A stretch of 64,000 bases of DNA from Minisyncoccota bacterium (GTDB lineage: Bacteria > Patescibacteriota > Minisyncoccia > Phycocordibacterales > Zambryskibacteraceae): contig JAGVCW010000021.1 in assembly GCA_020059045.1 (NCBI GenBank), positions 27,821 through 91,820 on the forward strand. The letters are read 5' to 3'. Positions 2,172 through 49,017 of the stretch are shown piece by piece (positions within the stretch are counted from its first letter, which is position 1; each line of letters opens with the position of its first letter). Under the pieces are notes generated by a model. That model was not told the DNA's origin. It saw only the letters and a program-made list of their open reading frames with translations, and did not search any database. The translations under genes and the position numbers were made by a program.

Positions 2172-2200
2172 TTGACTTATGGAGTATTAGTCTGTATAAT
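2172..2200 (+). promoter_or_regulatory. Sigma70-like promoter, TTGACT-17-TATAAT
   Basis: TTGACT at 2172-2177, a 17 nt spacer, and TATAAT at 2195-2200, immediately downstream of fusA. Confidence 0.5.
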
Positions 2201-2234
2201 TTACAAAGATTTAGAACCTCTAATGGGAGGCAAC

Positions 2235-2549
2235 ATGTTTTATTGGTGGGAGCGAACTTGGGAAGAAACAGATATAAGAATTTTCTTAGGAATGTTTGTC
2301 TTTCTCGGCTGGGTTTATTCCTTCTTCGCTTTTATTCACCGGGGGAGTGATATTCATAATGATTTTTATGGTTTGGTGCTTGTTTTTGGTTTTGCATTAT
2401 TCTGGGGCCTACTTTCTTTTTCAGCTTCTTGGAGTGTCTATCCGCGCAAGATGGCTCCGTTCCTCCTAGCTGCTCCATTTGTTGGGCTCATCATGGGTCT
2501 TGTTCCTTACCTGCTTACATACATAATTATACAAATTGCAGGGACGTAG
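2235..2549 (+). CDS. Small hydrophobic membrane protein (hypothetical)
   Basis: The ORF-track start at 2172 falls inside the promoter. The ATG at 2235 is preceded by GGGAGG. About 105 aa with 3-4 predicted TM helices. Confidence 0.45.
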   Translation: MFYWWERTWEETDIRIFLGMFVFLGWVYSFFAFIHRGSDIHNDFYGLVLVFGFALFWGLLSFSASWSVYPRKMAPFLLAAPFVGLIMGLVPYLLTYIIIQIAGT

Positions 2550-2579
2550 AAAATTTGCAGCAGTAACTTCAAGTACACT

Positions 2580-2602
2580 CCACGATGATATCGTGGTTTT
2601 TT
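2580..2602 (+). terminator. Rho-independent terminator
   Basis: Hairpin CCACGAT-gat-ATCGTGG followed by TTTTTT. Confidence 0.6.
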
Positions 2603-2669
2603 CATATAAAAAATTACTAAATAAAAATCTCCCGCTTCTCGAGTAGAGAATGGGAGATGCGGATTGAGG

Positions 2670-3170
2670 TTAATCTTTGATAGGAACTTCATCAGTGCTA
2701 CTCGCTCCGAAGATTCGTACGGGGTCTGCATTTTCCTGTCTTGAAAGATTTATCTCGTACTGATACAACAATGTGGGCAAAAGATATTTTTGAAGAAACT
2801 TTGCAAGGAGAGCAAGTTTCTCCTCTGGCGATTTGCCGAATGAATATATTGGCCCCCACAAATCTTCTTCGAAGAAAAGAGTTGCTTCGAAATATTCACT
2901 AGACACTATTGTCTCATGTGCCTTGCCACCTTTCTCATGACCTTCGTGTGTTTTACCATTGAGTTTAAGATGGTTTAGGATAATACCAGTAAGTGCAAAA
3001 AGATAGTCACTCCACTTAAGCTCGCTATGTTCAGTTCCAATCAAAAGCATTTCTCTACTTGCTTTTTCGAGCAGATGCTGCCTCTGCATTTCGCGTCTTT
3101 GCCATGCTGGCATTGTATTCGGCATTCGCCTCTCCTTTGGATGTAGGTACTTCTTGATCGAGCCTATCAC
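2670..3170 (-). CDS. Hypothetical protein
   Basis: 166 aa ORF with its own hairpin plus T-run terminator downstream (2627-2658, minus strand). No family recognised. Confidence 0.5.
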   Translation of the reverse strand: MIGSIKKYLHPKERRMPNTMPAWQRREMQRQHLLEKASREMLLIGTEHSELKWSDYLFALTGIILNHLKLNGKTHEGHEKGGKAHETIVSSEYFEATLFFEEDLWGPIYSFGKSPEEKLALLAKFLQKYLLPTLLYQYEINLSRQENADPVRIFGASSTDEVPIKD

Positions 3171-3254
3171 TCAAGTTTAAAAAAATCAATAAAAAGTTGA
3201 CAAGTATAGAACTTTATTTTACTCTTTCTCATAGAATGAATCCTTGGAGGAAGA

Positions 3255-3722
3255 GTGAAAGGAACGAGGGCAAGCCAGATAGAAGCCAAAGCAAGAAGCT
3301 TGGCAGGTTCAATACACCACCTTCTTGAGCGTGGCGAAGGACTAGTTGTAAATGTCCATATATCGAAACGTGTTAGTTCTCGAATTCAAGTAAGGGACGG
3401 CAGAATGAAATCTACTCGCCGTACGGAAGGACAGTTAGCCAATAGTGAGTGGAAACGTTTATTGAAACTTAGCCACAAGTTGTCTACTCAACTCTGGAAA
3501 GAGAAGGGAATAAATCCTATGTGTGACCTTGTAGCTATGCTTGCCAGAAACGGAAATAAACCTGTTCTGATTGGGAATATATGGACGAATTGGCCCGCTA
3601 GTCTTGGGTTTTGGTCTTTTCGAGATAGATTGAACGCTCTAATTCGTGACGAAGGAATGATGGTTCGTTTGCAGTACCTCAATCGTGACGACAGGCGAGT
3701 TAAATTTTTTAGGGTCAAGTAA
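3255..3722 (+). CDS. Hypothetical basic protein (GTG start)
   Basis: Candidate promoter TTGACA(3198)-17-TACTCT upstream. GGAGG lies 4 nt before the GTG start. Confidence 0.45.
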   Translation: MKGTRASQIEAKARSLAGSIHHLLERGEGLVVNVHISKRVSSRIQVRDGRMKSTRRTEGQLANSEWKRLLKLSHKLSTQLWKEKGINPMCDLVAMLARNGNKPVLIGNIWTNWPASLGFWSFRDRLNALIRDEGMMVRLQYLNRDDRRVKFFRVK

Positions 3723-3831
3723 CTGCACGGTATTTTATATGATGGCCGTGTTTTTTATACCTAGACTTTTCTTGATTTACCTGTAATCTCAAAAAAAGAA
3801 GCTCACTTACAATCTGCCACCAAGGTTCTTC

Positions 3832-4422
3832 ATGACTTATATTTCGGAGGGAGATCGTCGGTTCTGGCAAAGGAAGTACCCAGAGTTGACTGACCCGAAG
3901 AGATGGGATGATAAAGTCTGGAAAAGTGTAAAAATTGGAATGCACGCATCTCCAAATGCTTTGATAGCAGAAGTACGAGAAAAAGGTTTTGAAGTGGGAG
4001 AAGAAACTGTGCACATCTTACATAGTGTTACTTCAGAACCACGAACAGTTGAGCTCGTTCGTATGGAGAAGTGGAATATCACTCGCTGCATCACGCCAGG
4101 CATTGATGAGGATTGGTTGGCGAGACATCTCCCGATCTTTGGTCTAGAACCTGCAAACCCAGAAATTGCACTTGCACTACGCATGGACTACAGCGATCAG
4201 CCAGAAGGTGAAGAATTGGGAGTAGTTGTGGAAGATGCAAGAATTTGGCAGTTCGATCCTTCAGAGCTAGTCCATACAGGTGAGGCTCGTCCAGGTATAA
4301 TTTCACTAAAAAATCTGAAGGGAAGTAAGCAAGTGAGAATCTGGACGGGGGATTACACTTCTGCTCCATGGAATTTTGCCCCAGTGTATGATTGGGTCTT
4401 TGCTCGAGTAACTCCAAGATGA
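3832..4422 (+). CDS. Hypothetical protein
   Basis: 196 aa ORF. No recognisable motif. Confidence 0.45.
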   Translation: MTYISEGDRRFWQRKYPELTDPKRWDDKVWKSVKIGMHASPNALIAEVREKGFEVGEETVHILHSVTSEPRTVELVRMEKWNITRCITPGIDEDWLARHLPIFGLEPANPEIALALRMDYSDQPEGEELGVVVEDARIWQFDPSELVHTGEARPGIISLKNLKGSKQVRIWTGDYTSAPWNFAPVYDWVFARVTPR

Positions 4423-4506
4423 CCATATATTGTCTTGGTTTTTTGTTTTCGTAGTGATCTTTTCCTCAACATAGAGTATTCTGGAGCGAGAGGCTTTCAT
4501 CCCAAA

Positions 4507-4923
4507 ATGGAGGCAGATATGTCAAAGAAACTTCGTAAGCAAGTATTGGGCGAGGCTACAACAGTTGTGCGTCGCGTAACATCCGTGCCACAGCGTGAGC
4601 TAGCAGAGTCAATAGGGATTGATATAAGCAATTGCACAATTGAAAATGCAAAACCAGTTATTGCTAATCGGCTTAGAGACGAGGCTTGGGAACTTGTAGA
4701 AAGGAACAGAATAGTTCCAGGATTAAAGTGTCTTTGTGATGGCGTACCATGCATTGTACAAAAGATTGGTAGTACAGCCCGCGGGTGGGGTAACCCTGGT
4801 GCGATAGTTGTAGTTCGTAAGCTTACTGAGCGTCCATGGACCGGCCATGTACGTCCATCGAGACTTACTGAATTCGATTACTCTCACCCAGTTTCCGTCG
4901 AGCCTAGAACCGCTGCCCCATAA
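4507..4923 (+). CDS. Hypothetical protein with a possible helix-turn-helix
   Basis: Probable start is MEADMSKK at 4507 (the ORF track opens at 4435). The segment PQRELAESIGIDISNCTI resembles an HTH. Confidence 0.4.
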   Translation: MEADMSKKLRKQVLGEATTVVRRVTSVPQRELAESIGIDISNCTIENAKPVIANRLRDEAWELVERNRIVPGLKCLCDGVPCIVQKIGSTARGWGNPGAIVVVRKLTERPWTGHVRPSRLTEFDYSHPVSVEPRTAAP

Positions 4924-9225: not shown

Positions 9226-10065
9226 ATGAAACATTACAAACCAACAACCAAATCGCGAAGACAGATGACCGGTATAGACTACGGGAAAGTTTTGACCGCG
9301 AAAGATCCTTTGAAAAGTCTTACTCATGGAACTAAGCGTGATGTAGGCCGCAACCACCATGGTCGTGTTACAACACGTCACAAGGGAGGTGGGCACAAGC
9401 GTCTTTTCAGAGACATTGATTTTACATACAACAAATTTGATATTCCATTCAAAGTTTTAACAGTAGAATACGATCCAAACAGAACTGGTTTCATTGGCAT
9501 TGTAGTCTACAAGGATGGAGAAAAGAGATATGTCTTACTCCACAAAGGAGCGCGTGTTGGTGATACCTATATAGTTTCAGCTAAGGCTCCAGAGACAGTG
9601 GGCAACCGCCTGCCACTTGGCAAAATCACAGTGGGTACTTTCGTGTACAACGTAGAAGTTAAACCTCGTGGAGGTGCAAGGCTTGCAAGAAGCGCAGGTA
9701 ACTACATAGAAGTTGTTGCAAAGGATGCAGGCTACGTGGATCTTAAAATGCCATCTACAGAAGTAAGAAAAGTTTTAGAGACTTGCTGGGCGACAATCGG
9801 TGAAGTATCAAACGATGAGAACAGACTAGTAAATATCGGAAAAGCTGGAAGAAGTCGCTGGCTTGGTATAAGGCCTACTGTTCGTGGTTCTGCTATGAAC
9901 CCAGTAGATCATCCACACGGTGGAGGAGAGGGTCGTTCAGGACGCGGACGACGTCGAGCAGTGAGTGCATTTGGCAAACCAACAGGCAAGGGGCAGAAGT
10001 CTCGTACTCCAAAGAAATATTCAAACAAATTTATTGTTCGTCGCAGAAAAGTAGGAAAGAAGTAG
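9226..10065 (+). CDS. rplB: Ribosomal protein L2
   Basis: GRNHHGRVTTRHKGGGHKR...MNPVDHPHGGGEGR. Confidence 0.95.
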   Translation: MKHYKPTTKSRRQMTGIDYGKVLTAKDPLKSLTHGTKRDVGRNHHGRVTTRHKGGGHKRLFRDIDFTYNKFDIPFKVLTVEYDPNRTGFIGIVVYKDGEKRYVLLHKGARVGDTYIVSAKAPETVGNRLPLGKITVGTFVYNVEVKPRGGARLARSAGNYIEVVAKDAGYVDLKMPSTEVRKVLETCWATIGEVSNDENRLVNIGKAGRSRWLGIRPTVRGSAMNPVDHPHGGGEGRSGRGRRRAVSAFGKPTGKGQKSRTPKKYSNKFIVRRRKVGKK

Positions 10066-10095
10066 GATGATAAAGAGTAACCTACGACCGACAAC

Positions 10096-10114
10096 ACTAC
10101 TGAGTGGAAGCCGA
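10096..10114. repeat. GTGGAAGCCGAGCTTCCA(C) hairpin, copy 1 (second copy at 19098)
   Basis: 18-nt exact palindromic hairpin. It sits after the rplB stop and again after the rplE stop, in both cases at an operon interruption point. Confidence 0.55.
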
Positions 10115-10146
10115 GCTTCCAAAAATGTCTGTATTTCTTGCATAGC

Positions 10147-10175
10147 AGTGTAAATAAAAAAGCCCCGCATGTTTA
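10147..10175 (-). terminator. Rho-independent terminator for the minus-strand MYG1-like gene
   Basis: AGCCCCATAAACATGCGGGGCT followed by TTTTTT when read on the minus strand. Confidence 0.55.
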
Positions 10176-10186
10176 TGGGGCTACGG

Positions 10187-11155
10187 TTATACTGTATCAA
10201 GCACAGCTTGTATCTCTGCGGCCAGTGCATTGGCTTCAGCCGCGTCTCTACTCTCATTTTCCTCAAGTTGAGCAGAGTCAACTGGTACTTCTCCAGGCAG
10301 AAGTGCAAGTTCAGCAAGTCGCAAAGCACCCTCTCTACTCTCGGCTACGATTAGGTATCGGTTTTGGTGGCAAAACACGGCATCTCCTACCCCGGTGATT
10401 TCCTGAAGTTCAAGACCTCTCATACCTGCCCACTCTCTTGGTAACAAGCGAGGCGAAGTTGTATCAGTAGCTCTGTGCCAGCGTTTCACTGTCTGTACGA
10501 GCCAGCCGACCCTTTTGGGGTACACGACGAGGACTATTTCTGGGAAGTTTCTACTTACGTAGTGATCCCAACGGCATGAGTCATCAAGGAGTAAAACCTG
10601 TGGGCTTAAGTGCTTCTCTACAGCTCTCTTGACCACCTCTTCTCCTCGAATCTCTTCTTTTGCGCGGAAGATTGCACCACTTATGTTTGCTCGTGCAAAC
10701 GCAAGAGCAATATCCCAGTCACTTGGCTTAAATGTAGCTACTGCACTTGAAATGCTGTATGGCCGGATTTCACCAGCTTTGTATCTTACCAGAGTATACC
10801 TGTTGTCTGCCGCATCTATGGGTATAACCATGTGCCTCTCAATTTCTTCAGCTATCCGAGTGTCTTGAGCAATTCGCAGTCCGAAATGTTTCCATACAAG
10901 ACCGAAGGCAGCGTATGGAACACCATTTGCTCGTCTACCAGCACCTCCTTGCATATGGTGATCGAAGTCTAGAGTTTCTGGGTTGTACACTCCTCCTACA
11001 TCAATACGTACATTGCTTTCAGCTATTACTCTTGGATCGCGGCTACGCACCACAAGAGCTTCCATGTATTCCGGAAGCAATTGTAAGGCCGCGATCGCGT
11101 ACACCTCGTCTGCATGGATGGGTCCGTCGTGGGTCACAATTTGCACAGACAACAC
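10187..11155 (-). CDS. MYG1/UPF0160-family metal-dependent hydrolase-like protein
   Basis: N-terminal VTHDGPIHADEV matches the GTHxGxFHxDE signature. IDVGGVYNPETLDFDHHMQ matches the DVGG...FDHHQ signature. Length 322 aa. Intermediate GC, antisense to the ribosomal operon. Confidence 0.7.
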   Translation of the reverse strand: MLSVQIVTHDGPIHADEVYAIAALQLLPEYMEALVVRSRDPRVIAESNVRIDVGGVYNPETLDFDHHMQGGAGRRANGVPYAAFGLVWKHFGLRIAQDTRIAEEIERHMVIPIDAADNRYTLVRYKAGEIRPYSISSAVATFKPSDWDIALAFARANISGAIFRAKEEIRGEEVVKRAVEKHLSPQVLLLDDSCRWDHYVSRNFPEIVLVVYPKRVGWLVQTVKRWHRATDTTSPRLLPREWAGMRGLELQEITGVGDAVFCHQNRYLIVAESREGALRLAELALLPGEVPVDSAQLEENESRDAAEANALAAEIQAVLDTV

Positions 11156-11368
11156 CTCAAAATGGGAGTGAAATGCTTCTATAACAAAGGGCAGTACAAA
11201 ATACAGAGTACATATTTTTAGAAAATAGTCAAGATTTGCTAGATTTGCAATAAGTCTATGAGTTTATGGGTATTAGTTATTTTCTCACAATATAAGTGCT
11301 TATTTACTCCCAAAATATGGCCTAAGATAGCCCTTTTTGGGGATTTATGTAATTTAAATCAAAAAGTT

Positions 11369-11397
11369 CTTGACAAATAAATTGTATATGTTATACT
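11369..11397 (+). promoter_or_regulatory. Sigma70-like promoter, TTGACA-16-TATACT
   Basis: CTTGACAAATAAATTGTATATGTTATACTA upstream of the high-GC ORF. Confidence 0.45.
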
Positions 11398-11479
11398 ATA
11401 GGTAGTAGTAAGTAGTACATTTCAGTTGCAGTTCCCCGTTCAAGGTAGTCCACTCAGCACACCTTATGGAGGTATTACC

Positions 11480-12199
11480 ATGGCTAGCAAGAAGAAGCAG
11501 CAGGTAGCAACGAGCCCGGTTCCCAGCATGCAGGCCGCGGTTGCCACGATGGCGGAAGAGGCTCCCGCCGAGAGCAGGCAGTTCTCTTCGAGCCAGCCGA
11601 AGTGGTCCCCGACTCAGTTCATTGAGACCCTGGGGAAGATCAAGGAAGAACTCCCGGCCGCCGTGTCGAACTTCAAGATCGTGAAGAAGATCGTGGGTCT
11701 CGAGATGGACGGCAAGGATGAGATGGCCTTTCGGCAGATGATTCAGCTCGCCGGGGCCGTTGCTACCAAAGCATCCCAGAAGGCGGACGCGGAAGACCCA
11801 TCAAAGGTGTATCTGGATGCCAGGAAGGTCCAGGCTGCGCTCACCGCATGTGAGCGTGCCAATTCCAATCTGGCACGCACCTTCGACAGGTACATCGGGA
11901 ACTGGCGGAAGCGGGCTGACACCATGATGTCGAACGCAAGGCGCAAGGACCCGGACGTGATCGAGCGCGAGAGTGACACAATCGCGGACAACATGGAGGC
12001 ACTGGATGAGGCACTTGAAGGAAAGAAGCCTCGTCAAGAGGTCCTCGAGATCTACAACAGGACCTTCACCCATCTTCGCGAGCTCTCAAAGGAAGCAACG
12101 GCGCTTGCTACTGAAGCTTCGAGGAGAGAGCAGATCGAAACGATCGGCTCACTCGGGGACGACATCCTCGACTCTCTCGCGGAACTCGACAGCATCTAA
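11480..12199 (+). CDS. High-GC hypothetical alpha-helical protein
   Basis: Probable start MASKKKQQ at 11480. About 60% GC with strong GC3 bias, very different from the flanking r-protein genes. No recognised domain. Confidence 0.55.
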   Translation: MASKKKQQVATSPVPSMQAAVATMAEEAPAESRQFSSSQPKWSPTQFIETLGKIKEELPAAVSNFKIVKKIVGLEMDGKDEMAFRQMIQLAGAVATKASQKADAEDPSKVYLDARKVQAALTACERANSNLARTFDRYIGNWRKRADTMMSNARRKDPDVIERESDTIADNMEALDEALEGKKPRQEVLEIYNRTFTHLRELSKEATALATEASRREQIETIGSLGDDILDSLAELDSI

Positions 12200-12217
12200 G
12201 TGCTGCGAGCAGTAGTA

Positions 12218-12258
12218 CCCCACGAAAAACCCCCAAGGTATCGTGGGGTTTTTCTTTT
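12218..12258 (+). terminator. Rho-independent terminator
   Basis: CCCCACGA-loop-TCGTGGGG followed by TTTTTCTTTT. Confidence 0.6.
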
Positions 12259-12472
12259 ATTGCAATTGCGGAGAATACCATGACAGCTAGGCTGCATGGG
12301 ATGAATCCGCAAATACATACTATATGTCGGCGGAGCCGACTCCTCTTGCAACAAAGTTTGCCCTGATGCCTCGTCCTGCTACTCGCCGAGGCTTTGCGAG
12401 GGAATAGCTTACTGCGATTATAGGACGAGGCCAATTTTATTAAGATAATAATCTTTCCTGTATAATTTATAT

Positions 12473-13441
12473 ATGGAATACAAAACTATTATTTTGCCTA
12501 CTAGGCCTCAGGTGGATACTGTTATTTCTATATTCGTATTAAAGCACTTTGGTGAAAGTTTCTTCCCTGGTATTAAGACTGCTAGCTATGAGTTCATGTC
12601 CAACTTACCAGCTGGTGCGAGCGAAGAGAGCTTGGCAGAGGAAGGAAGGCTCCCAATAGATATTGGTGGTGGACGATTTGATCATCACAACAAAGAGGAG
12701 AAAACCACTGTTCTAAATCTTTTGACTAGCTTTCTTGCTCAAGGGAATAATCCTGCTTTAATAAAACTCAAGAAGTTTGTAGAAAGAGATGATTTTTATG
12801 GTAAAGGAATAATATCCTCTGACCCCCTTGATCGTGCTTTCGGTTTGCCCGGGCTTATTGCTTGTCTTAATAAAAAGTATTCAAGTAACCCAGCGAAAGT
12901 GCTGGATATAATTCTTCCAGTTGTTGATGCGTACTACGAAGAAGAAGAGAAGAGGGCAATAGGAATGCCTCTTGAACTTAAGGAGAAAATAGCAAATGGT
13001 AAAGCTAGAGTATTTAATACAGAGCAGAGAGGCAGAAAACTTAAATGCATTTTCATAGAAAGCGATAACATAAGTCTACCGGGTTTTCTTCGATCTAAGA
13101 TTGGAGGGGAGCACGATGTGATTGCAATAAGGCTATCGTCTGGACACACAAATATTCTTACGAGTCTCAAAAATACAGTTGATTTGCGTTCACTCGCAGT
13201 GCTTATTCGCTTACAAGAAGCCGAGGCGCGAGGTGTGAAGCTAGATGGAGTGCCGGAAGATTTAGCAGTACCGGGTAAAATCGATGAAGTACTTAATTGG
13301 TACTACGATACAGCTACTAACTCTTTACTAAATGGTGGTCCTAATCCAAGTGAGACCGACCCAACGGGAATAGCATCTTTCGAATTTGAAAAAATAATGG
13401 AAATAGGGCTCTCTGAGAAACTCTGGTCTCCATCACGATAA
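12473..13441 (+). CDS. Degenerate MYG1-like paralog, or DHH-motif protein
   Basis: 322 aa, the same length as the minus-strand MYG1-like protein. Retains IDIGGGRFDHHNKEE, comparable to IDVGGVY..FDHH. The N-terminal His/Asp signature is replaced by TRPQVDTVIS. Low GC. Confidence 0.5.
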   Translation: MEYKTIILPTRPQVDTVISIFVLKHFGESFFPGIKTASYEFMSNLPAGASEESLAEEGRLPIDIGGGRFDHHNKEEKTTVLNLLTSFLAQGNNPALIKLKKFVERDDFYGKGIISSDPLDRAFGLPGLIACLNKKYSSNPAKVLDIILPVVDAYYEEEEKRAIGMPLELKEKIANGKARVFNTEQRGRKLKCIFIESDNISLPGFLRSKIGGEHDVIAIRLSSGHTNILTSLKNTVDLRSLAVLIRLQEAEARGVKLDGVPEDLAVPGKIDEVLNWYYDTATNSLLNGGPNPSETDPTGIASFEFEKIMEIGLSEKLWSPSR

Positions 13442-13469
13442 GCCAAATACCCTTTATATTAGCCACGTA

Positions 13470-13520
13470 ATGGTCTATAAAAATCCTTGACTTTTATAGA
13501 CCATTATGCTATTATTATAC
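13470..13520 (+). promoter_or_regulatory. Promoter with an embedded perfect palindrome (operator-like)
   Basis: TGGTCTATAAAAATCCTTGACTTTTATAGACCA, then TTGACT-17-TATTAT. The palindrome arms flank the -35 box. Confidence 0.4.
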
Positions 13521-13564
13521 AAGAACAGCAGTTTCACACACCGACCCTTTCACAAGGAGTTTGC

Positions 13565-14155
13565 ATGGTAAAAAGCAAGGAAGTCGTCGACCCCGCATTT
13601 GTCGGAGAAGTGGAAGCGGCGCTCGTGTACCTCACGGTGCCCGGCAATCTGAAGTATCTTATACCCGGGTGGGTAAAAGAGGCGGACTTCTCGAATACTC
13701 CAAAGTCCGAGCGCCAGATGGCCCCACGATCCGATAAGTTGTTCCAAGTTGCACAAGCGAGGATGGATGGGGTGCTCGGGGATCTTGCCGGCGCTGGTTT
13801 CCTCCCCTCTGAAGTGTTTTATCTGAATCGGGATGGTGGCGCGCGGCGGGTTCGTATCACATGCAAGCGCTTTGGCGCACCGCTGACACTCGATCAGGTG
13901 CAGTCTCTCATTCCCCTCACTACCGAGCGGATATGGGATGTGATGGCTCATCGGACGGCTGCTACCAGGAACATTCCATGGGAGCACATTTCGATCAATG
14001 CCGGACGCCCCGATCATGCTCCAGAAGGGGGATTCGAAGCGGTTCGCGTGGTCGAAGGTCGAGTCTCGGTAGTTTCCCTTCTCAACACGGACGAGCTGCG
14101 GAAGGCGTCTGAGTCCATCATCGGCCTCCTCGAATCGCTGCAGATAACACGCTAA
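13565..14155 (+). CDS. High-GC hypothetical protein
   Basis: Start MVKSKEV. GC3-rich. The plus frame is more protein-like than the overlapping minus-frame ORF. Confidence 0.5.
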   Translation: MVKSKEVVDPAFVGEVEAALVYLTVPGNLKYLIPGWVKEADFSNTPKSERQMAPRSDKLFQVAQARMDGVLGDLAGAGFLPSEVFYLNRDGGARRVRITCKRFGAPLTLDQVQSLIPLTTERIWDVMAHRTAATRNIPWEHISINAGRPDHAPEGGFEAVRVVEGRVSVVSLLNTDELRKASESIIGLLESLQITR

Positions 14156-14184
14156 TCCTCCTTGCGATAACAGGGGGGTCAACG

Positions 14185-14215
14185 AGCCAGACAGAAATGT
14201 CTGGCTCTTTTCTAT
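14185..14215 (+). terminator. Rho-independent terminator
   Basis: GCCAGACA-gaaa-TGTCTGGC followed by TCTTTTCT. Confidence 0.6.
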
Positions 14216-14219
14216 TTAA

Positions 14220-14246
14220 TTGACAACAAGTGTCTATTTCTATAAT
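14220..14246 (+). promoter_or_regulatory. Sigma70-like promoter that restarts the operon before rpsS
   Basis: TTGACA at 14220-14225, a 15 nt spacer, and TATAAT at 14241-14246. Confidence 0.45.
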
Positions 14247-14349
14247 ATCTTGAGAAGCTCATCCGAGCTTTTTGTATTCTAATTTTAGTTTTAGTAGCTG
14301 GGCAGGAGTAACCCTTCGACGAGCTCAGGGTAAAAATCTAAAGATTTTT

Positions 14350-14709
14350 GTGACACGATCATCAAAAAAAGGCCCCTATGTATATGAGCGCCTTCTGAAG
14401 AAAATTGAAGGCAAAAAGCCCGAGCAAGCTGGGGTTATTAAGACATGGGCAAGGGACAGCCAGATCGCTCCCGAGATGGTTGGCTACACATTTGGAGTAC
14501 ATAATGGTAAGGATCATATTGAAGTTTTTGTAACTGAAGACATGGTGGGTCATAGACTCGGCGAATTCTCACCTACACGTAAGTTCGTTAAACATGGCGG
14601 TAAGATGCAGAAAGAACTTGAGCAGAAGAAGAAAGAATCAGAAATAGCATCTGCTCAAGCGGCCAAAGCCTCTGTAAGTGCAGGAGCAAATACAGTACCG
14701 GCGAAGTAG
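14350..14709 (+). CDS. rpsS: Ribosomal protein S19 (probable GTG start)
   Basis: [13 protein letters not shown]...[31 protein letters not shown]. The ORF track opens at 14272, but the S19 N-terminus aligns from the GTG at 14350. Confidence 0.85.
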
Positions 14710-15947: not shown

Positions 15948-16325
15948 TTGTTCTATATGTCAGAGAGATTTCAAGGATATAGGTTTGAAAAATTGGAAGT
16001 TTGGCAGGTGGGAATGCGTATAGTAAGTAAGGTATATTCAATTACGAAAAGGTTTCCTAAAGACGAGACCTACGCCCTGTCTGACCAGTTAAAAAGAGCA
16101 GCCACTTCGATAGTTTTAAACTTGGCAGAAGGCTCAGGACAGCCAACAAAAAAGTTATTCTCTCTTTATATTGAACGTGCCAAGTCCTCAACACTTGAAT
16201 GTGTGGCTTGTACAAAAATTGCTGTTCAGGAAAAACTTGTAGAACCTGATGAGGTTAAATCTTTGGAAGAGCTACTTGCGGAAGAGTATTTTAAACTTAT
16301 TGCGCTAGCAAAATCTATGAGGTAA
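15948..16325 (+). CDS. Four-helix-bundle protein (23S rRNA intervening-sequence protein / Avd-like family)
   Basis: FPKDETYALSDQLKRAATSIVLNLAEGSG is the hallmark of this family. About 120 aa. Inserted between rpsC and rplP. Confidence 0.7.
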   Translation: MFYMSERFQGYRFEKLEVWQVGMRIVSKVYSITKRFPKDETYALSDQLKRAATSIVLNLAEGSGQPTKKLFSLYIERAKSSTLECVACTKIAVQEKLVEPDEVKSLEELLAEEYFKLIALAKSMR

Positions 16326-31360: not shown

Positions 31361-34300
31361 ATGAAAAAGATTGTCATAGCAGTTATTTTGCTCGCAGTGT
31401 TGCTGTTGTCTGGTCCGATTTCGGCTCAAACCCTAGAAGCACAAACCATAAACGACATGTATGCGGTAGTGTTGTCGCTTCAAAACTTGATTCGTCAGTT
31501 AGTTGCGCTTGTTTCTCAGGGAGGAAATCTTGCGCAAGTTACGAACATAGTCACAGTAACTGGGTCAGTCTCTCCTGTACCAGTAACTCTTGGTGACCAG
31601 GCCAATCTTACATGGGACTCAACTAATACAACATCCTGTCTGCTTGATATAGGTACAGCAAACATAACAGGCCAGGCAGTGTCTGGCACATACACTGTGA
31701 CACCAACAAAGTCGATGGATTATATAGTCAAATGTACTGGATCGACTGGCTCAAAATTCGTAAAAGTCCCAGTAGTCGTGGTGGCAGCCTCAACTCCTTC
31801 CACCCCGTCCACTCCAGCAACTCCTTCCACCCCGTCCACACCATCTACTCCATCTACTCCATCTACACCATCTACACCATCTACACCATCAACACCAGCA
31901 ATTCCAAGTGGTCCAATAGTTTTACCAGATTTACCACAAACCTTTTCCGTGTCGGTTCCAGCTCAAACTGGAACAGTCATCTCAGTTCCGGCCGGGAACG
32001 CTGCAGCTTTTCAAGCGGCACTCAACAGTGCAGTCCTGGGTGATGTGATCGAGCTCCAAGCAGGCTCCACCTACACCGGAACATTTACGTTTCCCAATAA
32101 AACTTCTGGCAGCGGCTGGATTACAGTACGCTCCAGTGCCCACAACAGTCTCCCTCAAGGAATTCGAGTAGACCCCGGGGATGTTTCTAAAATGGCTAAA
32201 ATTATCACTAATGCCGTTGGATCAGGGGGGGCAGCATCAGGTTCTGCTATAATTTTTGCTAATAGTGCTCATCATTATTATCTACTAGGCTTAGAAGTGA
32301 CTGCGGCCACTGCAGCCAAGATTGCCACAGGTCCTACTATCCAGATGGACTTTACTACTCCTCTTTCTAATCAGCCCACGAACATTACACTCGATCGCAT
32401 GTATGTTCACGGTCATTCTAATTTAGACATGACCAGATGTATTCTAGCCAACGGTGCCTACATCGCTGTTATCAATAGTTATGTTTCTGAATGTCACTCT
32501 GGAGCGGATGCTCAAGCCATCGAAGTATGGACTGGATCTGGACCATTTAAATTTGTAAATAACCACCTGGAAGCGTCCGGCGAAAATATCATGTTCGGGG
32601 GTGCAGATCCCAAAGTGCAAGGACTCATTCCGTCGGACGCCGAAATTCGTGGAAATTATATTTATACTCCCATTGCCTGGGGGCCCTCGACTCCGTGGAC
32701 TAGAAAAAACTTATTTGAGACTAAAAATGCGCAAAGAGTACTTCTCGAAGGTAATATTCTAGATGGATCTTGGGCAGATGGGCAAGTGGGGTATGCTATT
32801 GTGCTCAAATCTTCAGATCAAGGAGGTGTTGGCACCGGGTGTACTTGGTGTGCATCAAAAGATATTACCGTAAGGTACAACATTATTCGCAATGCAGCCG
32901 GTACAGTGGATATAAGTGGAAAGCAAAACGCTATCGGTACTGCTCCGGCCCTTACCGAACGAATCCTAATTGAACACAACATTTTTGAAAATATTAATGT
33001 TGCCCCATACACCGGGGCTGCCCGACTGCTTAGTTTTAGCCTCGATGTGCGTGATCTTATATATAGGAATAACACTGTTAATACCACGGGCTATCTTCAG
33101 GGTATGATATTAGTGGGTGGAACTCCATCGAACTCTCTGAGTTTCCCGGGTGTCACAAACTTTGAATACAAGGACAATATCACTCCTTTTGGAGAATTCG
33201 GTATATTTGCCACTAACCTAATCGGGGAAGCCCTTTTTGCTGGCTCGCCAAACATTGCTGGTATCTCTAATTATTCGGGTAACGTGACTTACAACAATAC
33301 GTCAGCAAATAAGTACAATGCAACTACTCATCCCACGACTAAACTTTATTCAAGTTACAGCGCAGCAGTGGCCAGTGGTAAAGGCGCAAATACAGCGGCT
33401 GTGCTTGCGGCTACTAAGAATGCGCAAAACGGCGGAGGCGCTGGGACCCAGCCACCTCCTCCACCTCCTCCACCCCCGCCTAACACAACTGTTCCTACCC
33501 CTCCTTCTCCCGTTGCCATTACAACCTATGTTACACCTCCGGCAAACGGAGAGTCGACGCCTCCTTCTGCGGTAAAAAATTTACGTACTTGGGGAGTGTG
33601 CGACAACATGATCGGAGTTACTTGGGATCACGCTACAGATAATTACGGAGTGGCGGGTTATATTATTTCTCGAGACGGACAACCCTATACTATGACGGTG
33701 AGAAGTAGACCTCTCGGCACAACCGGAGGTGTTCCCAACAATACTGCCACCACCATAAGAAATTGGGTCACTGACTCCGGCCGGCAACCCAACACCTCGC
33801 ATTCTTACTCCGTGCAAGCGTTCGATACCTCCAACAACAAAGGCCCCGTGGCTACTTTCTCTGCCAAGACATCAACGGGCGGTTGTTTTGACCCGACCCC
33901 CCCAGTGCCGATGAATCTTAGACTTACAGGTTCGACATTAAATAGCGCGGGGTTAACTTGGGATCCCGTTACAGATTCCCGTTATAACGTAGTTCAATAT
34001 AGAATATATCTGGATTTTCCGCTCTTTACGCCTTTTCCTTTTCCCGCAGCACCTACATTTATGAATCCTGCTACTCCTCCTTTTGTCTATGGGAATCTTC
34101 CCTCAGCTCCTAGTCACAATTTCTTTGTTTCCTCTCGTAGCAACCTTGGTAAAGAGGGTGACTGGACTATGCCTCTTATTATGACTCCCGGTCAAACCAC
34201 GCCTGCTCCTACCGTGATGCTATCCGCTTCACCAAGCTCTGTGATTCCAGGTGGACAAACAATTCTCACCTGGTCTTCTACTAATGCAACAAGCTGTACC

Positions 34301-35746
34301 GCAAGCGGCGGGTGGTCTGGTTCGCAAGCTTTAGTCGGGACTCTTACAATCACACCCATAACAAGTTCACCATACACACTTTCATGTAGTGGAGCAGGTG
34401 GATCATCAATTAAATCAGTAACGGTTACTGTTGGTGGAATCATACCTCCACCACCAAACCCATTGTTTAGTATAGGAGATAGAGCAGAAACCACAGCTAA
34501 CCTAAATGTTCGATCTGGCCCAAGTGTCGATGCAACAGTTTTTGGTATCCAATCTCTTGGATCACTTGGCACCATTATTGAAGGACCAAGTATAGGTTCA
34601 ATTTACACTTGGTGGAATATTAACTTCGATGCGGGTGTAGATGGATGGAGTGCAGAAAGTTTCCTAAAGAAATCTACCATCTCGACACCACCTCCAGCTA
34701 GTCAACCCGTTGTTACTCTTTCTGTTTCACCTTCCACAATCACTTCTGGTTCGCCAGCAACTCTCACCTGGTCTTCTACTAATGCAACAAGCTGTACTGC
34801 AAGCAGTGGGTGGTCTGGTTCTAAGTCCACGTCTGGTGTGCATGGTATTGCTCCTGCTACAAACACTACGTATACACTCTCATGTAGTGGGGGAGGTGGA
34901 TCGTCAAGTAAATCTGTAACAGTCACAGTAATATCTACTACTCCAACTCCAACACCTAGTGATCCTACGCCTACTGACCCAACCCCGACTCCAACTCCAA
35001 CTCCTACACCTAATCCCGTTCCTACCCCAGGAGATGGCCAGGTATGTGCTCAAGTTGCAACATGGGCTAAAAGTCCATCAGGACAAATTAGGCAGTTCCC
35101 AAGTGCATGTATTCCAAGTGGTTGGGTCGTAATAGCATCTCCACTTATAGAAATTCCTAAAATTCCTACGACTCCAATTCCACCTGTTGGAGAGGTTCCT
35201 ACTATCCCAACAACTGAATCTCCAAGAACAGTTATTACTAAACAGCTTTACTTTGGAGTATCTGATCCCCAAGTTACAGCTCTTCAGATTTTCTTGAGGT
35301 CAAAAGGACTGTATTCAGATGACATTACTGGATTCTTCGGTACAAAAACTCTTCAATCTGTGCGTCTATACCAGACATCAAAGGGGATAGATGCGACAGG
35401 TGCTGTGGGCCCACAAACAAGAGCATCAATATCGGCTGAGACGACAGGTATCACTACGCCATCTACACCAACGACGCAAGCCCCAAGCGCACCTACGACC
35501 GGTTCGCTACCAAGAACACTGTATCGAGGTATATCAGGTAGTGATGTTTCATCTCTACAGACCATACTTATGAACCTGGGATATTACAATGACGAGATTA
35601 CAGGATACTTCGGTGTGAAAACGGAAGCGGCAGTTCAGGCATTCCAGAGAGCAAATGGAATAGTATCTTCAGGTAGTCCTGGTACTACTGGGTATGGGCT
35701 CGCAGGGCAACTAACAAGAGCAAAACTTATTGAACTAAGCCAATAA
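31361..35746 (+). CDS. Giant secreted multidomain surface protein. Contains a signal peptide, a PT-repeat linker and a parallel beta-helix. A poly-Pro tract is followed by an FN3-like module. Two Ig-like Cys-pair repeats, one SH3b module and two C-terminal PG_binding_1 domains complete it.
   Basis: Signal peptide MKKIVIAVILLAVLLLSGPISAQT. (STP)n linker. Beta-helix repeats (NNHLEASGENIMFGG, GNYIYTP, LEGNILDG). QPPPPPPPPPPN tract. Duplicated LTWSSTNATSCTASGGWSG...YTLSCSG modules. SH3b-like segment NVRSGPS...WWNINFDAGVDGWSAESFL. Two LYxGxSGxDVxxLQ...GYFG..T..AV..FQ modules. Confidence 0.85.
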   Translation: MKKIVIAVILLAVLLLSGPISAQTLEAQTINDMYAVVLSLQNLIRQLVALVSQGGNLAQVTNIVTVTGSVSPVPVTLGDQANLTWDSTNTTSCLLDIGTANITGQAVSGTYTVTPTKSMDYIVKCTGSTGSKFVKVPVVVVAASTPSTPSTPATPSTPSTPSTPSTPSTPSTPSTPSTPAIPSGPIVLPDLPQTFSVSVPAQTGTVISVPAGNAAAFQAALNSAVLGDVIELQAGSTYTGTFTFPNKTSGSGWITVRSSAHNSLPQGIRVDPGDVSKMAKIITNAVGSGGAASGSAIIFANSAHHYYLLGLEVTAATAAKIATGPTIQMDFTTPLSNQPTNITLDRMYVHGHSNLDMTRCILANGAYIAVINSYVSECHSGADAQAIEVWTGSGPFKFVNNHLEASGENIMFGGADPKVQGLIPSDAEIRGNYIYTPIAWGPSTPWTRKNLFETKNAQRVLLEGNILDGSWADGQVGYAIVLKSSDQGGVGTGCTWCASKDITVRYNIIRNAAGTVDISGKQNAIGTAPALTERILIEHNIFENINVAPYTGAARLLSFSLDVRDLIYRNNTVNTTGYLQGMILVGGTPSNSLSFPGVTNFEYKDNITPFGEFGIFATNLIGEALFAGSPNIAGISNYSGNVTYNNTSANKYNATTHPTTKLYSSYSAAVASGKGANTAAVLAATKNAQNGGGAGTQPPPPPPPPPPNTTVPTPPSPVAITTYVTPPANGESTPPSAVKNLRTWGVCDNMIGVTWDHATDNYGVAGYIISRDGQPYTMTVRSRPLGTTGGVPNNTATTIRNWVTDSGRQPNTSHSYSVQAFDTSNNKGPVATFSAKTSTGGCFDPTPPVPMNLRLTGSTLNSAGLTWDPVTDSRYNVVQYRIYLDFPLFTPFPFPAAPTFMNPATPPFVYGNLPSAPSHNFFVSSRSNLGKEGDWTMPLIMTPGQTTPAPTVMLSASPSSVIPGGQTILTWSSTNATSCTASGGWSGSQALVGTLTITPITSSPYTLSCSGAGGSSIKSVTVTVGGIIPPPPNPLFSIGDRAETTANLNVRSGPSVDATVFGIQSLGSLGTIIEGPSIGSIYTWWNINFDAGVDGWSAESFLKKSTISTPPPASQPVVTLSVSPSTITSGSPATLTWSSTNATSCTASSGWSGSKSTSGVHGIAPATNTTYTLSCSGGGGSSSKSVTVTVISTTPTPTPSDPTPTDPTPTPTPTPTPNPVPTPGDGQVCAQVATWAKSPSGQIRQFPSACIPSGWVVIASPLIEIPKIPTTPIPPVGEVPTIPTTESPRTVITKQLYFGVSDPQVTALQIFLRSKGLYSDDITGFFGTKTLQSVRLYQTSKGIDATGAVGPQTRASISAETTGITTPSTPTTQAPSAPTTGSLPRTLYRGISGSDVSSLQTILMNLGYYNDEITGYFGVKTEAAVQAFQRANGIVSSGSPGTTGYGLAGQLTRAKLIELSQ
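31795..31910 (+). repeat. Tandem 9-nt (Ser/Thr-Pro) coding repeat
   Basis: TCCACCCCGTCCACTCCA... encodes (STP)n x about 12. Confidence 0.8.
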
Positions 35747-48792: not shown

Positions 48793-48866
48793 AGAATATT
48801 TGTCCACCCTCCACGATTTGAACGTGGGACCCTCGAGGTATAAGCTCGATGCTCTAACCAACTGAG
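48793..48866 (-). tRNA. tRNA-Ile with anticodon UAU (reads AUA)
   Basis: Minus strand: CCACCCU-UA-GCUC-AGUUGGUUA-GAGC-A-UCGAG-CUUAUAC-CUCGA-GGGUC-CCACG-UUCAAAU-CGUGG-AGGGUGG-A. Perfect cloverleaf. The anticodon-loop middle triplet is UAU. The D-arm is typical of Ile/Met. Confidence 0.7.
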
Positions 48867-49017
48867 CTAAGGGTGGTATAGCGCTCAAATACTATATCAA
48901 ATATGGAAATCCTTCAATTATTACAGTCGTGCGGTTAAGTGTCCCAGCTATCCACAACGTGAGTATTCACATTGTTATAACCTAAGGGTATACTTCTAAT
49001 CAAGTTGCGGTCCTGTC

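What the first reader, a model, noticed from the sequence alone, without database searches (positions are those of the whole stretch)
10187..13441. Divergently arranged pair of 322-aa MYG1-like proteins, one with intact metal-binding signatures and one with the N-terminal His/Asp motif lost
The minus-strand protein retains THDGPIHADE and DVGG..FDHH, the hallmarks of the UPF0160/MYG1 family. The plus-strand protein of identical length retains IDIGGGRFDHH but has TRPQVDTVIS in place of the HxD signature. This is an enzyme plus pseudo-enzyme arrangement, bracketing a foreign high-GC gene. It may be a regulator/effector or immunity-like pair.
Basis: partly seen in the sequence, partly recalled or inferred. 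Interest (0 to 1): 0.6.

Follow-up and report, generated by a model that had tools for sequence, protein, structure and literature searches.

The report
MYG1 nuclease beside a divergent MYG1-like enzyme
A candidate-phyla (Patescibacteria) bacterium carries an ordinary MYG1 RNA exonuclease next to a distant, unannotated relative that is probably a working enzyme rather than a dead copy, because in about 40% of related genomes it is fused to or adjacent to an enzyme that opens cyclic-phosphate RNA ends.

Summary
Both 322-aa ORFs and the quoted motifs are real. The minus-strand gene (10187-11155) is a clear MYG1/UPF0160 member (PF03690, E 1e-50).

The plus-strand gene (12473-13441, "geneC") matches no Pfam, NCBIfam or PDB sequence. 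It belongs to a conserved Patescibacteria family of at least 378 proteins. Profile-profile comparison (90%, E 1e-6) and a confident AlphaFold model place it in the DHH/DHHA1 phosphoesterase fold, remotely related to MYG1.

It is probably not a decayed pseudo-enzyme:
- The motif II Asp, the DHH triad and an acidic cluster are invariant.
- The two lost His are replaced by invariant Arg11 and Gln13.
- In 34 of 82 loci it is fused to, or adjacent to, a 2H cyclic phosphodiesterase of three different subfamilies, at either terminus.

MYG1 lies within 2.5 kb of geneC in 8 of 82 loci in varied arrangements (P about 7e-7). None of 80 sampled MYG1 loci has geneC, so the link is real but facultative.

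The most likely function is processing of RNA 3' ends or cyclic-phosphate nucleotides. Nothing supports an immunity role.

The "foreign" high-GC gene is part of a recurrent, unexplained pattern: GC3-rich, fast-evolving orphan genes flank geneC in many genomes.

The parts
9226..10065 (+). rplB (ribosomal protein L2), the upstream border of the break in the S10 operon
   Evidence: ORF. It matches L2 of related loci at 1e-120 to 1e-152, where Pfam Ribosomal_L2_N/C is on record.
10187..11155 (-). geneA: a MYG1/UPF0160 DHH-family protein with intact motifs (THDGPIHADE, DVGG, FDHH). It is presumed to be a 3'-5' exoribonuclease and is convergent with rplB.
   Evidence: PF03690 at E 1.2e-50, 173 bits. 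PDB MYG1 exonuclease 24ah_A at E 1.8e-24. 164 homologs, of which the best non-self hit is 42% identical. GC 0.49 against a window GC of 0.42.
11370..11397 (+). Promoter-like site (TTGACA, 16 nt, TG-n-TATACT) in the AT-rich divergent intergenic region, upstream of geneB
   Evidence: 11 of 12 consensus matches. The total number of sites in the region is no more than the shuffles give, so this is weak evidence. A GGAGG lies 7 nt before the ATG at 11480.
11480..12199 (+). geneB: a 239-aa helical orphan protein with a basic, low-complexity N-terminus. It is GC3-rich (0.72); the mechanical ORF starts at 11426.
   Evidence: Only 3 homologs among 1.84 billion representatives. Homolog P0245 sits at the same syntenic position and has GC3 0.82. 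No Pfam, PADLOC or PHROG family. Codon-position GC is 0.58/0.43/0.72.
12231..12248 (.). Bidirectional terminator-like hairpin after geneB
   Evidence: 5-bp stem with 4 GC pairs and T-runs on both strands.
12473..13441 (+). geneC: member of an unannotated Patescibacteria family with a DHH/DHHA1 fold, remotely related to MYG1. Motif I is RPQVDT, motif II is IDIGGG, motif III is FDHH.
   Evidence: 378 homologs. Conserved residues. hhalign against MYG1 gives 90% probability, E 1.4e-6. AF2 pLDDT 90.7. Foldseek hits are NrnA, family II PPase, DhhP, GdpP and RecJ. No Pfam, NCBIfam or PDB sequence hit.
13455..13519 (.). Imperfect 31-nt inverted repeat in the geneC-geneD spacer
   Evidence: pair I1, 77% complementary, 3 nt between the arms. 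Its function was not tested.
13565..14155 (+). geneD: a 196-aa GC-rich orphan protein that follows geneC. The mechanical ORF starts at 13487.
   Evidence: Positional homologs follow geneC in L001, L005, L011 and L163, all GC3-rich at 0.68-0.95. Only 2 other database hits. The structure model has low confidence.
14184..14207 (+). Terminator-like hairpin after geneD, followed by a promoter-like site at 14220-14248 ahead of rpsS
   Evidence: 10-bp stem with 6 GC pairs and a T-rich tail, then TTGACA-17-TAATAT.
14272..14709 (+). rpsS (ribosomal protein S19), the downstream border of the break in the S10 operon
   Evidence: ORF. It matches S19 of related loci at about 1e-50 to 1e-63.

Best explanation
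The locus holds two distantly related phosphoesterases of the DHH superfamily, not an enzyme and its dead copy.

GeneA is a standard MYG1, a family shown in eukaryotes to be a 3'-5' RNA exonuclease.

GeneC belongs to a separate, well-conserved Patescibacteria-specific family with a DHH/DHHA1 two-domain fold. It keeps one motif I Asp (D15), the motif II Asp (D63), the DHH triad (D70-H71-H72) and a downstream acidic cluster (D106/D107, D117, D120). The two motif I His of MYG1 are replaced by invariant Arg11 and Gln13.

Inference: geneC is a catalytically active metal-dependent phosphoesterase with a remodelled first metal site. It acts in series with a 2H cyclic phosphodiesterase. The 2H domain opens a 2',3'-cyclic phosphate on an RNA 3' end or on an RNA-derived nucleotide. 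GeneC then removes the resulting 2'/3'-phosphate or the terminal nucleotide. MYG1 can then trim the 3'-OH end.

In this genome geneC is unfused, and no 2H gene is seen in the 64-kb window. MYG1 is a facultative neighbour working on the same class of substrate.

In this lineage the genes lie in a lineage-specific break of the S10 ribosomal-protein operon between rplB and rpsS. They seem to be transcribed from their own signals.

Shown: the homology, the fold, the residue conservation, the fusions and the neighbourhood statistics. Inferred: catalytic activity, the substrate and the order of steps.
For: - GeneA: PF03690 at E 1.2e-50 and solved MYG1 exonuclease at E 1.8e-24. MYG1 is a 3'-5' RNA exonuclease whose DHH motif is required for function (PMC6582341).
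- GeneC family: 378 homologs, all named ones from Patescibacteria. Mean column identity is 62%, with invariant R11, Q13, D15, D63, D70, H71, H72, D107, D117 and D120.
- Relation to MYG1: hhalign gives 90.4% probability, E 1.4e-6.
- Fold: AF2 pLDDT 90.7. The 14 best Foldseek hits are all DHH/DHHA1 proteins, led by NrnA 4ls9 at E 1e-4 and probability 0.97.
- 2H link: 25 of 82 loci have a fused 2H domain from three sequence clusters, at the N- or C-terminus. Another 9 have a separate 2H gene within 2 kb. Pfam confirms LigT_PEase, 2_5_RNA_ligase2 and tRNA_lig_CPD above their cut-offs (precomputed domains).
- MYG1 link: MYG1 is within 2.5 kb in 8 of 82 loci, in at least 4 different arrangements. 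The geneC copies in those loci are only 38-52% identical to each other. Binomial P is about 7e-7. Three of those loci also carry 2H (L028, L041, L057).
- Background: 2H enzymes clear 2',3'-cyclic ends and linear phosphatases then act (PMC7824862).
Against: - No biochemical data exist for any member of the geneC family.
- Motif I lacks both His of MYG1 and one Asp of the canonical DxD. The canonical GGGH of DHHA1 is absent (NGG is invariant instead). Activity could therefore be weak, mono-metal, or reduced to binding only.
- No Pfam DHH, DHHA1 or MYG1 model hits geneC at E<=1, and the family profile hits no PDB sequence.
- Foldseek TM-scores are low, about 0.2.
- This window has no 2H domain. 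48 of 82 loci show no 2H within reach.
- 0 of 80 MYG1 loci carry a geneC-type neighbour.
- In 13 related loci that also place geneC next to the S10 ribosomal-protein genes (L001, L002, L005-L012, L018, the P0004 contig) MYG1 is absent. MYG1 here could therefore be a recent, incidental insertion.
Confidence: 0.55

Rival explanations
1. One reading: geneC is a catalytically dead MYG1 derivative that regulates, inhibits or confers immunity to the active MYG1 encoded divergently.
For: - The motif I His residues are lost.
- The two proteins are remote homologs.
- MYG1-geneC adjacency recurs in 8 of 82 loci, including one divergent pair like this one, L074.
- Paralog pairs with truly degenerate partners exist in this superfamily: cluster 2 has lost DHH.
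Against: - All other catalytic-type residues are invariant across the family.
- 34 of 82 loci tie geneC to a 2H enzyme, not to MYG1.
- 74 of 82 geneC loci have no MYG1 nearby, and 0 of 80 MYG1 loci have geneC.
- No PADLOC hit.
- In this window the two genes are separated by geneB and a terminator-like hairpin, and look like separate transcription units.
Confidence: 0.1
2. There is no functional link between geneA and geneC here. MYG1 (with geneB) landed by chance in a rearrangement hot spot between rplB and rpsS that already held geneC.
For: - In 13 related loci that also place geneC next to the S10 ribosomal-protein genes (L001, L002, L005-L012, L018, the P0004 contig) there is never a MYG1. 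Both borders are visible in only some of these loci.
- The gap content is highly variable: L10/L12, a channel protein, Cas1, GIY-YIG and orphans.
- GeneA has a different GC (0.49) and is at most 47% identical to any other MYG1 seen.
- The reciprocal test gave 0 of 80.
Against: MYG1 is within 2.5 kb of geneC in 7 of 76 independent species-level genomes, in different orientations. All 7 fall in the nearest 38% of the sampled DNA. Binomial P is about 7e-7 for a 0.8-Mb genome with one MYG1.
Confidence: 0.25
3. GeneC (with 2H and MYG1) acts on small nucleotides rather than on RNA ends. One option is salvage of 2',3'-cNMP, nanoRNA or pAp in organisms that cannot make nucleotides. The other is turnover of signalling nucleotides such as c-di-AMP, pApA, cyclic oligoadenylate or 2'-5' oligoadenylate.
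For: - The closest folds are NrnA (nanoRNase/pAp phosphatase), DhhP and GdpP (c-di-AMP/pApA phosphodiesterases).
- DHH enzymes hydrolyse 3'-5', 2'-3' and cyclic dinucleotide linkages, and one degrades a type III CRISPR messenger (PMC7824862).
- 2H enzymes also cleave 2'-5' linkages (established knowledge of the 2H superfamily).
Against: - No signalling or CRISPR genes recur in the neighbourhood. Recurrent neighbours are FtsH, ribosomal proteins, RNase Y, an aminoacyl-tRNA synthetase, YraN and RNHCP.
- One of the fused 2H types is the tRNA-ligase CPD type, which acts on RNA ends.
- MYG1 prefers RNA polymers.
Confidence: 0.2

Closest known systems
MYG1 / UPF0160 (PF03690), DHH-superfamily 3'-5' RNA exonuclease
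   Same: GeneA is a full member. GeneC shares with it a remote profile-profile relationship (90%), the DxGG...FDHH core, one motif I Asp, about the same size, and a two-lobed DHH-type fold.
   Different: - GeneC is not hit by PF03690 or by MYG1 PDB sequences.
- Motif I is P-x-R-x-Q-x-D-T instead of T-H-x-G-x-F-H-x-D-E.
- The C-terminal domain has its own invariant signature (W-Y-Y-D-x-A-T-N-S-x-x-N-G-G) and lacks the MYG1 'F-x-H' His.
- GeneC is restricted to Patescibacteria and often fused to 2H domains, which MYG1 is not.
NrnA / DhhP / GdpP-type DHH-DHHA1 phosphoesterases (nanoRNase, pAp phosphatase, c-di-AMP/pApA phosphodiesterase) and RecJ
   Same: These are the best structural matches: 4ls9 at E 1e-4, 9r7o, 5xt3 and 5f55. 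The architecture is bilobal and the motif II Asp and DHH are conserved.
   Different: There is no sequence-level hit. The canonical DxD of motif I is reduced to one Asp, and there is no GGGH motif. Sequence identity in the structural alignments is 10-15%.
RNA 3'-end healing modules that combine a 2H cyclic phosphodiesterase with a second end-modifying enzyme (fungal/plant tRNA ligase CPD plus kinase; bacterial LigT/ThpR)
   Same: Homologs of geneC are fused to LigT-type or tRNA-ligase-CPD-type 2H domains, each with two HxT/Sx motifs. This suggests a two-step treatment of 2',3'-cyclic phosphate ends.
   Different: The partner here is a DHH-type phosphoesterase, not a kinase or ligase. No ligase recurs in the neighbourhood. 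The window's own geneC has no 2H domain.

Membership tests
MYG1 / UPF0160 (PF03690): geneA | Match to the Pfam model above the gathering score | tested here: met
   173.3 bits against a cut-off of 22.1, covering profile positions 1-318 of 318.
MYG1 / UPF0160 (PF03690): geneA | Metal-binding signatures THxGxFHxD(D/E), DVGG and FDHH | tested here: met
   THDGPIHADE, RIDVGG and FDHH are present. H9, H14, D16, D52, D65, H66 and H67 are invariant in alignment A2.
MYG1 / UPF0160 (PF03690): geneA | 3'-5' exoribonuclease activity | not testable with these tools
   Activity is known only for eukaryotic MYG1 (PMC6582341).
MYG1 / UPF0160 (PF03690): geneC | Match to the Pfam model | tested here: not met
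   No Pfam family at E<=1. No PDB MYG1 sequence hit with the single sequence or with the family profile.
MYG1 / UPF0160 (PF03690): geneC | Motif I with two His and one Asp | tested here: not met
   The motif is LPTRPQVDT. In hhalign Q13 pairs with MYG1 H14 and D15 with D16. R11, Q13 and D15 are invariant in the family.
MYG1 / UPF0160 (PF03690): geneC | Detectable common ancestry with MYG1 (profile-profile) | tested here: met
   hhalign A1 against A2 gives 90.4% probability, E 1.4e-6, 174 columns. The bridging C-prime paralogs keep the MYG1-like motif I: they score 100% against geneC and 52% (E 1.4e-4) against MYG1.
DHH/DHHA1 phosphoesterase superfamily: geneC | Two-domain DHH plus DHHA1-like fold | tested here: met
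DHH/DHHA1 phosphoesterase superfamily: geneC | Motifs I (DxD), II (D), III (DHH), IV (D) | tested here: inconclusive
   Motifs II (D63) and III (D70-H71-H72) are invariant. Motif I keeps one Asp (D15). Candidate motif IV acidic residues (D106/D107, D117, D120) are invariant or nearly so, but their alignment to motif IV is uncertain.
DHH/DHHA1 phosphoesterase superfamily: geneC | GGGH substrate-binding motif of DHHA1 | tested here: not met
   There is no GGGH. The family has invariant N287-G288-G289 and a nearly invariant S223-G224-H225 instead.
2H phosphoesterase (LigT / tRNA-ligase CPD): partner domain | Two HxT/Sx motifs and a Pfam match, present in this window | tested here: not met
   Such a domain is present in 34 of 82 homologous loci. 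None was found in the 64-kb window with three cluster HMMs. GeneD shows no significant similarity by hhalign or by fold, though its model has pLDDT 51.
Anti-phage defence or toxin-immunity pair | Match to known defence-system models | tested here: not met
   PADLOC gives no hit for geneA, geneC or geneD, and only noise (E 0.003) for geneB. PHROGs gives none. No flanking repeats typical of a mobile element were found.

The most novel reading that the evidence does not exclude
GeneC is the hub of a Patescibacteria-specific, modular machine for processing RNA 3' ends. In this reading it forms hetero-oligomers with a second MYG1-like paralog and works with a 2H cyclic phosphodiesterase.

The second paralog varies between genomes:
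- MYG1 itself.
- The 'C-prime' class, which keeps motif I but has lost the motif II Asp and has DEH in place of DHH.
- The DHH-less cluster 2 class.

The complementary pattern of motif losses among the paralogs would then reflect composite or asymmetric active sites.

The GC3-rich, fast-evolving orphan genes that flank geneC in many genomes would be functionally tied accessory or substrate-specifying factors, not random insertions.
Probability: 0.15. Interest if true: 0.7.

Novelty: new variant of a known kind. Interest (0 to 1): 0.45.

Why it matters
Patescibacteria have tiny genomes with many unannotated conserved genes, unusual rRNA processing and a dependence on scavenged nucleotides.

This work defines a large family that every source calls "hypothetical". 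It places the family in the DHH/MYG1 superfamily. It also ties the family, through repeated independent gene fusions, to cyclic-phosphate chemistry at RNA ends.

That gives a concrete, testable biochemical hypothesis for several hundred orphan proteins. It also offers a natural series of paralogs with graded active-site loss for studying how DHH enzymes change or lose function.

The composition anomaly around geneC is a separate puzzle about genome evolution in these organisms. There, codon-periodic genes with GC3 up to 0.95 sit next to a gene with GC3 0.33.

Tried and rejected
- **GeneD as a detached 2H phosphoesterase.** The idea came from 'HISI'/'HVSV'-like strings and from its position after unfused geneC. 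hhalign against the three 2H clusters was not significant, but those clusters do not detect each other either, so the test is weak. Only 2 database homologs were found. The AF2 model had pLDDT 51. Foldseek gave no hit at E<=1e-3 and no 2H fold. The idea is unsupported.
- **GeneB identity.** No Pfam, NCBIfam, PADLOC or PHROG match. Only 3 homologs among 1.84 billion representatives. The family HMM finds no further copy in 80-plus loci.
- **Mobile-element signature around the insert.** No meaningful direct or inverted terminal repeats and no tRNA nearby.
- **Structured RNA as the cause of the GC-rich islands.** No Rfam hit in the region. The codon-position GC pattern and the protein-level homologs argue for coding sequence.
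- **Family profile of geneC against PDB sequences.** No hits.
- **Reciprocal linkage from the MYG1 side.** 0 of 80 metagenome loci. The sample includes many non-Patescibacteria contigs (GC up to 0.76), so it only bounds the frequency.
- **GC-rich neighbours in other loci.** 9 of 10 tested have no Pfam family; one has a cold-shock domain.


Full report
**1. What is in the sequence**

The interval lies inside the S10 ribosomal-protein operon of a roughly 42%-GC genome. EF-G, EF-Tu, S10, L3, L4, L23 and L2 precede it, and S19, L22 and S3 follow it. All named relatives are Patescibacteria (Parcubacteria, Paceibacterota or Minisyncoccota).

Four genes sit between rplB (9226-10065) and rpsS (14272-14709):

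| Gene | Coordinates | Strand | Length | GC |
|---|---|---|---|---|
| geneA | 10187-11155 | - | 322 aa | 0.49 |
| geneB | 11480-12199 (ORF from 11426) | + | 239 aa | 0.58 |
| geneC | 12473-13441 | + | 322 aa | 0.40 |
| geneD | 13565-14155 (ORF from 13487) | + | 196 aa | 0.57 |

The equal length of geneA and geneC is incidental. JGI calls geneA as 292 aa from Met31, which removes motif I.

**2. GeneA**

GeneA is a full-length PF03690 match (E 1.2e-50, 173 bits). It matches solved MYG1 exonuclease chains at E 1.8e-24. It has 164 detectable homologs, and the named ones are from Patescibacteria. The closest non-self homolog is only 42% identical. MYG1 is a DHH-family 3'-5' RNA exonuclease that processes pre-rRNA and mitochondrial RNA 3' ends, and mutation of its DHH motif abolishes function (PMC6582341).

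**3. GeneC is a family of its own**

- It matches no Pfam or NCBIfam model at E<=1. It matches no PDB sequence, either alone or as a family profile.
- It has 378 homologs at E<=1e-3. The best 120 score below 1e-94, and all sources call them hypothetical.
- An alignment of 32 members (48-68% identity to the window copy) has 62% mean column identity.
- Invariant residues include P9, R11, Q13, D15, T16, D63, G67, D70, H71, H72, R105, D107, G110-K111-G112, S115, D117, D120, E157, E158, R161, R207, S208, D215, N227, W276, D279, A281-T282-N283-S284 and N287-G288-G289.
- This is purifying selection on a specific site, not decay.

**4. Relation of geneC to MYG1 and the DHH superfamily**

- Pairwise BLASTP between geneA and geneC is marginal (E 0.016).
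- hhalign of the two family alignments gives 90.4% probability and E 1.4e-6 over 174 columns. It pairs Q13/D15 with MYG1 H14/D16 and puts DxGG..FDHH in register.
- An AlphaFold2 model built from the family alignment is confident (pLDDT 90.7, pTM 0.78).
- Its best Foldseek PDB hits are exclusively DHH-superfamily proteins: NrnA 4ls9 (E 1e-4, probability 0.97), family II pyrophosphatases, H. pylori 6mtz, DhhP 9r7o, GdpP 5xt3 and RecJ. The next hit is the DHHA1-like C-terminal domain of AlaRS.
- TM-scores are low, as expected for hinged bilobal proteins.

**5. Evidence that geneC is an enzyme working with a 2H phosphodiesterase**

Eighty-two loci were analysed: 76 from one-genome-per-species contigs, 5 from exact look-ups, and the window.

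- 25 geneC genes carry an extra 136-223-aa domain, 16 at the N-terminus and 9 at the C-terminus.
- These domains fall into three sequence clusters, each with two HxT/Sx motifs.
- Pfam confirms LigT_PEase and 2_5_RNA_ligase2 for one cluster and tRNA_lig_CPD for another, above their cut-offs. The third cluster carries precomputed PF02834 hits.
- Nine further loci have a stand-alone 2H gene within 2 kb, four of them within 4 bp of geneC.
- Repeated independent fusion of different 2H subfamilies at either end is strong evidence of a shared pathway.
- 2H enzymes open 2',3'-cyclic phosphates, after which a linear phosphatase acts (PMC7824862).
- The window's geneC is unfused, and no 2H domain occurs in the 64-kb window.

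**6. Is the MYG1-geneC pair a unit?**

- MYG1 lies within 2.5 kb of geneC in 7 of the 76 independent loci: L028, L037, L041, L047, L057, L058 and L074.
- The arrangements differ. In L028 and L057 MYG1 is downstream on the same strand (88 bp and 4 bp away). In L041 and L058 it is upstream on the same strand. In L074 and L037 it is divergent. In L047 it is convergent.
- The geneC copies in these loci are 38-52% identical to each other, and the MYG1 copies 24-47%.
- All seven fall in the nearest 38% of the sampled DNA (P about 1e-3). Against a 0.8-Mb genome with one MYG1, the binomial P is about 7e-7.
- The link is facultative. Thirteen related loci also place geneC next to the S10 ribosomal-protein genes and none has MYG1 (L001, L002, L005-L012, L018, the P0004 contig). 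Both borders, rplB and rpsS, are visible in only some of these loci.
- None of 80 MYG1 loci from metagenomes has a geneC-type, 2H or geneD neighbour.
- PADLOC and PHROGs give nothing for either protein.
- In the window the two genes look like separate transcription units. There is a promoter-like site and a Shine-Dalgarno sequence before geneB, a terminator-like hairpin after geneB and another after geneD, and a promoter-like site before rpsS. These are consensus matches only.

**7. A series of paralogs**

Two further classes of the same superfamily occur next to geneC in other genomes.

- **C-prime class (5 loci).** It keeps the MYG1-like motif I (HxxPHxDE) but has lost the motif II Asp and has DEH/DDH in place of DHH. 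hhalign gives 100% against geneC and 52% against MYG1.
- **Cluster 2 (15 loci, always just upstream on the same strand).** It keeps one motif I Asp and the motif II Asp but has lost DHH entirely. hhalign gives 99% against geneC and nothing against MYG1.

An enzyme plus pseudo-enzyme arrangement therefore does exist in this superfamily. In it, geneC is the likely enzyme. That pair is not present in this window.

**8. Genomic setting**

- In the clade closest to the window (geneC at least 54% identical), geneC lies in the same break of the S10 operon between rplB and rpsS. It is usually preceded by rplJ-rplL, a 185-aa protein and a small channel-like protein.
- In more distant genomes it lies elsewhere. 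It is most often followed by ftsH (17 loci) or an RNHCP zinc-ribbon gene (8 loci). It is also found near RNase Y, a class I aminoacyl-tRNA synthetase and YraN.
- The ribosomal-operon position is therefore lineage-specific synteny rather than a family-wide association.

**9. The 'foreign' high-GC gene**

- GeneB and geneD are the only two clear GC-rich islands in the 64 kb.
- They are codon-periodic (GC1/GC2/GC3 of 0.58/0.43/0.72 and 0.65/0.44/0.61), so they are coding.
- GeneD has positional homologs after geneC in L001, L005, L011 and L163, at 25-41% identity. Each is GC3-rich (0.83, 0.68, 0.76 and 0.95) next to a geneC with GC3 0.30-0.35.
- GeneB has only three homologs among 1.84 billion representatives. 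One of them sits in the same syntenic block and has GC3 0.82.
- Across 79 loci, the genes at positions -1 and +1 from geneC exceed the locus-median GC by at least 0.10 in 19% and 17% of cases. At positions 4 to 6 genes away the figure is 0-4%, and for geneC itself it is 0%.
- These neighbours are mostly orphans without a Pfam family.
- They are therefore not a one-off foreign insertion. Why fast-evolving GC3-rich genes cluster around geneC is unexplained.

**10. Verdict**

The homology inference is supported. The pseudo-enzyme and immunity interpretation is not.

The best-supported reading is that geneC belongs to a new Patescibacteria-specific branch of the MYG1-like DHH superfamily. It is probably an active phosphoesterase that cooperates with a 2H cyclic phosphodiesterase on RNA 3' ends or RNA-derived nucleotides. 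MYG1 is an occasional neighbour with a related function. Catalysis, substrate and any physical interaction remain untested.

Noticed in passing
window 11426-12199 and 13487-14155; L001 6940-7473; L011 5771-6277; L012 10980-13162; L018 557-4799; L082 2864-4423; L163 515-1755 and 2919-3494: GeneC (GC3 about 0.3) is recurrently flanked by fast-evolving, codon-periodic, GC3-rich orphan genes (GC3 0.6-0.95). Genes at positions +/-1 exceed the locus-median GC by at least 0.10 in 17-19% of 79 loci, against 0-4% at positions +/-4 to 6. No explanation was found.
   Followed up: partly
L013 2045-3202, L014 2444-3544, L023 2157-3209 and 12 further loci: A roughly 350-aa paralog of geneC ('cluster 2') lies directly upstream of geneC on the same strand in 15 genomes. 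It has lost the DHH triad (for example 'IDLGEEKYNR') but keeps the C-terminal LxNGG..PT signature. This is a genuine candidate pseudo-enzyme partner.
   Followed up: partly
L037 58-1140, L058 7667-8791, L060 11632-12648, L051 5528-6571(-), L042 1-384: The 'C-prime' paralogs keep the MYG1-type motif I (HxxPHxDE) but lack the motif II Asp and have FDEH/HDDH instead of DHH. Their motif losses are roughly complementary to those of geneC. In L037 and L058 they co-occur with both MYG1 and geneC.
   Followed up: partly
window 10066-14271; L001, L002, L005, L008, L009, L012: The S10 operon is broken between rplB and rpsS in this lineage. In relatives the gap holds rplJ-rplL (L10, L7/L12), a YbjQ-like gene, a small MS-channel-like gene and, in L005, a Cas1 and a GIY-YIG gene. 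In the window there are unannotated ORFs between EF-G and EF-Tu instead (2172-4923).
   Followed up: partly
window 15948-16325: A gene for a 23S rRNA-intervening-sequence protein (PF05635, E 5.5e-27) is inserted between rpsC (S3) and rplP (L16).
   Followed up: no
window 10187-11155: The public JGI gene call for the MYG1 gene starts at Met31 (292 aa) and so omits the THDGPIHADE metal-binding motif. The GTG at 11155 is the first start codon of the ORF. GeneA also has a C-terminal extension of about 35 aa beyond the Pfam domain that other Patescibacteria MYG1 proteins lack.
   Followed up: partly
window 13455-13519: A 31-nt imperfect inverted repeat (77% complementary, 3-nt loop) fills most of the spacer between geneC and geneD. 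It could be a processing, attenuation or operator site.
   Followed up: no
window 48802-48876 and 61097-61186: ARAGORN calls a tRNA-Ile with anticodon TAT and a tRNA-Ser with anticodon ACT. Both anticodons are unusual for bacteria.
   Followed up: no
window 31361-35746 and 49018-53538: Two very long ORFs (1461 and 1506 aa) have GC2 (0.56) higher than GC1 and GC3. This is an atypical codon-position composition. They were not examined.
   Followed up: no
L026, L037, L040, L042, L052, L058, L061, L076 (gene immediately downstream of geneC): A 115-aa RNHCP-domain zinc-ribbon protein (PF12647, E 1.3e-25) directly follows, or overlaps by a few bases, geneC in 8 genomes. FtsH directly follows geneC in 17 others.
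   Followed up: partly
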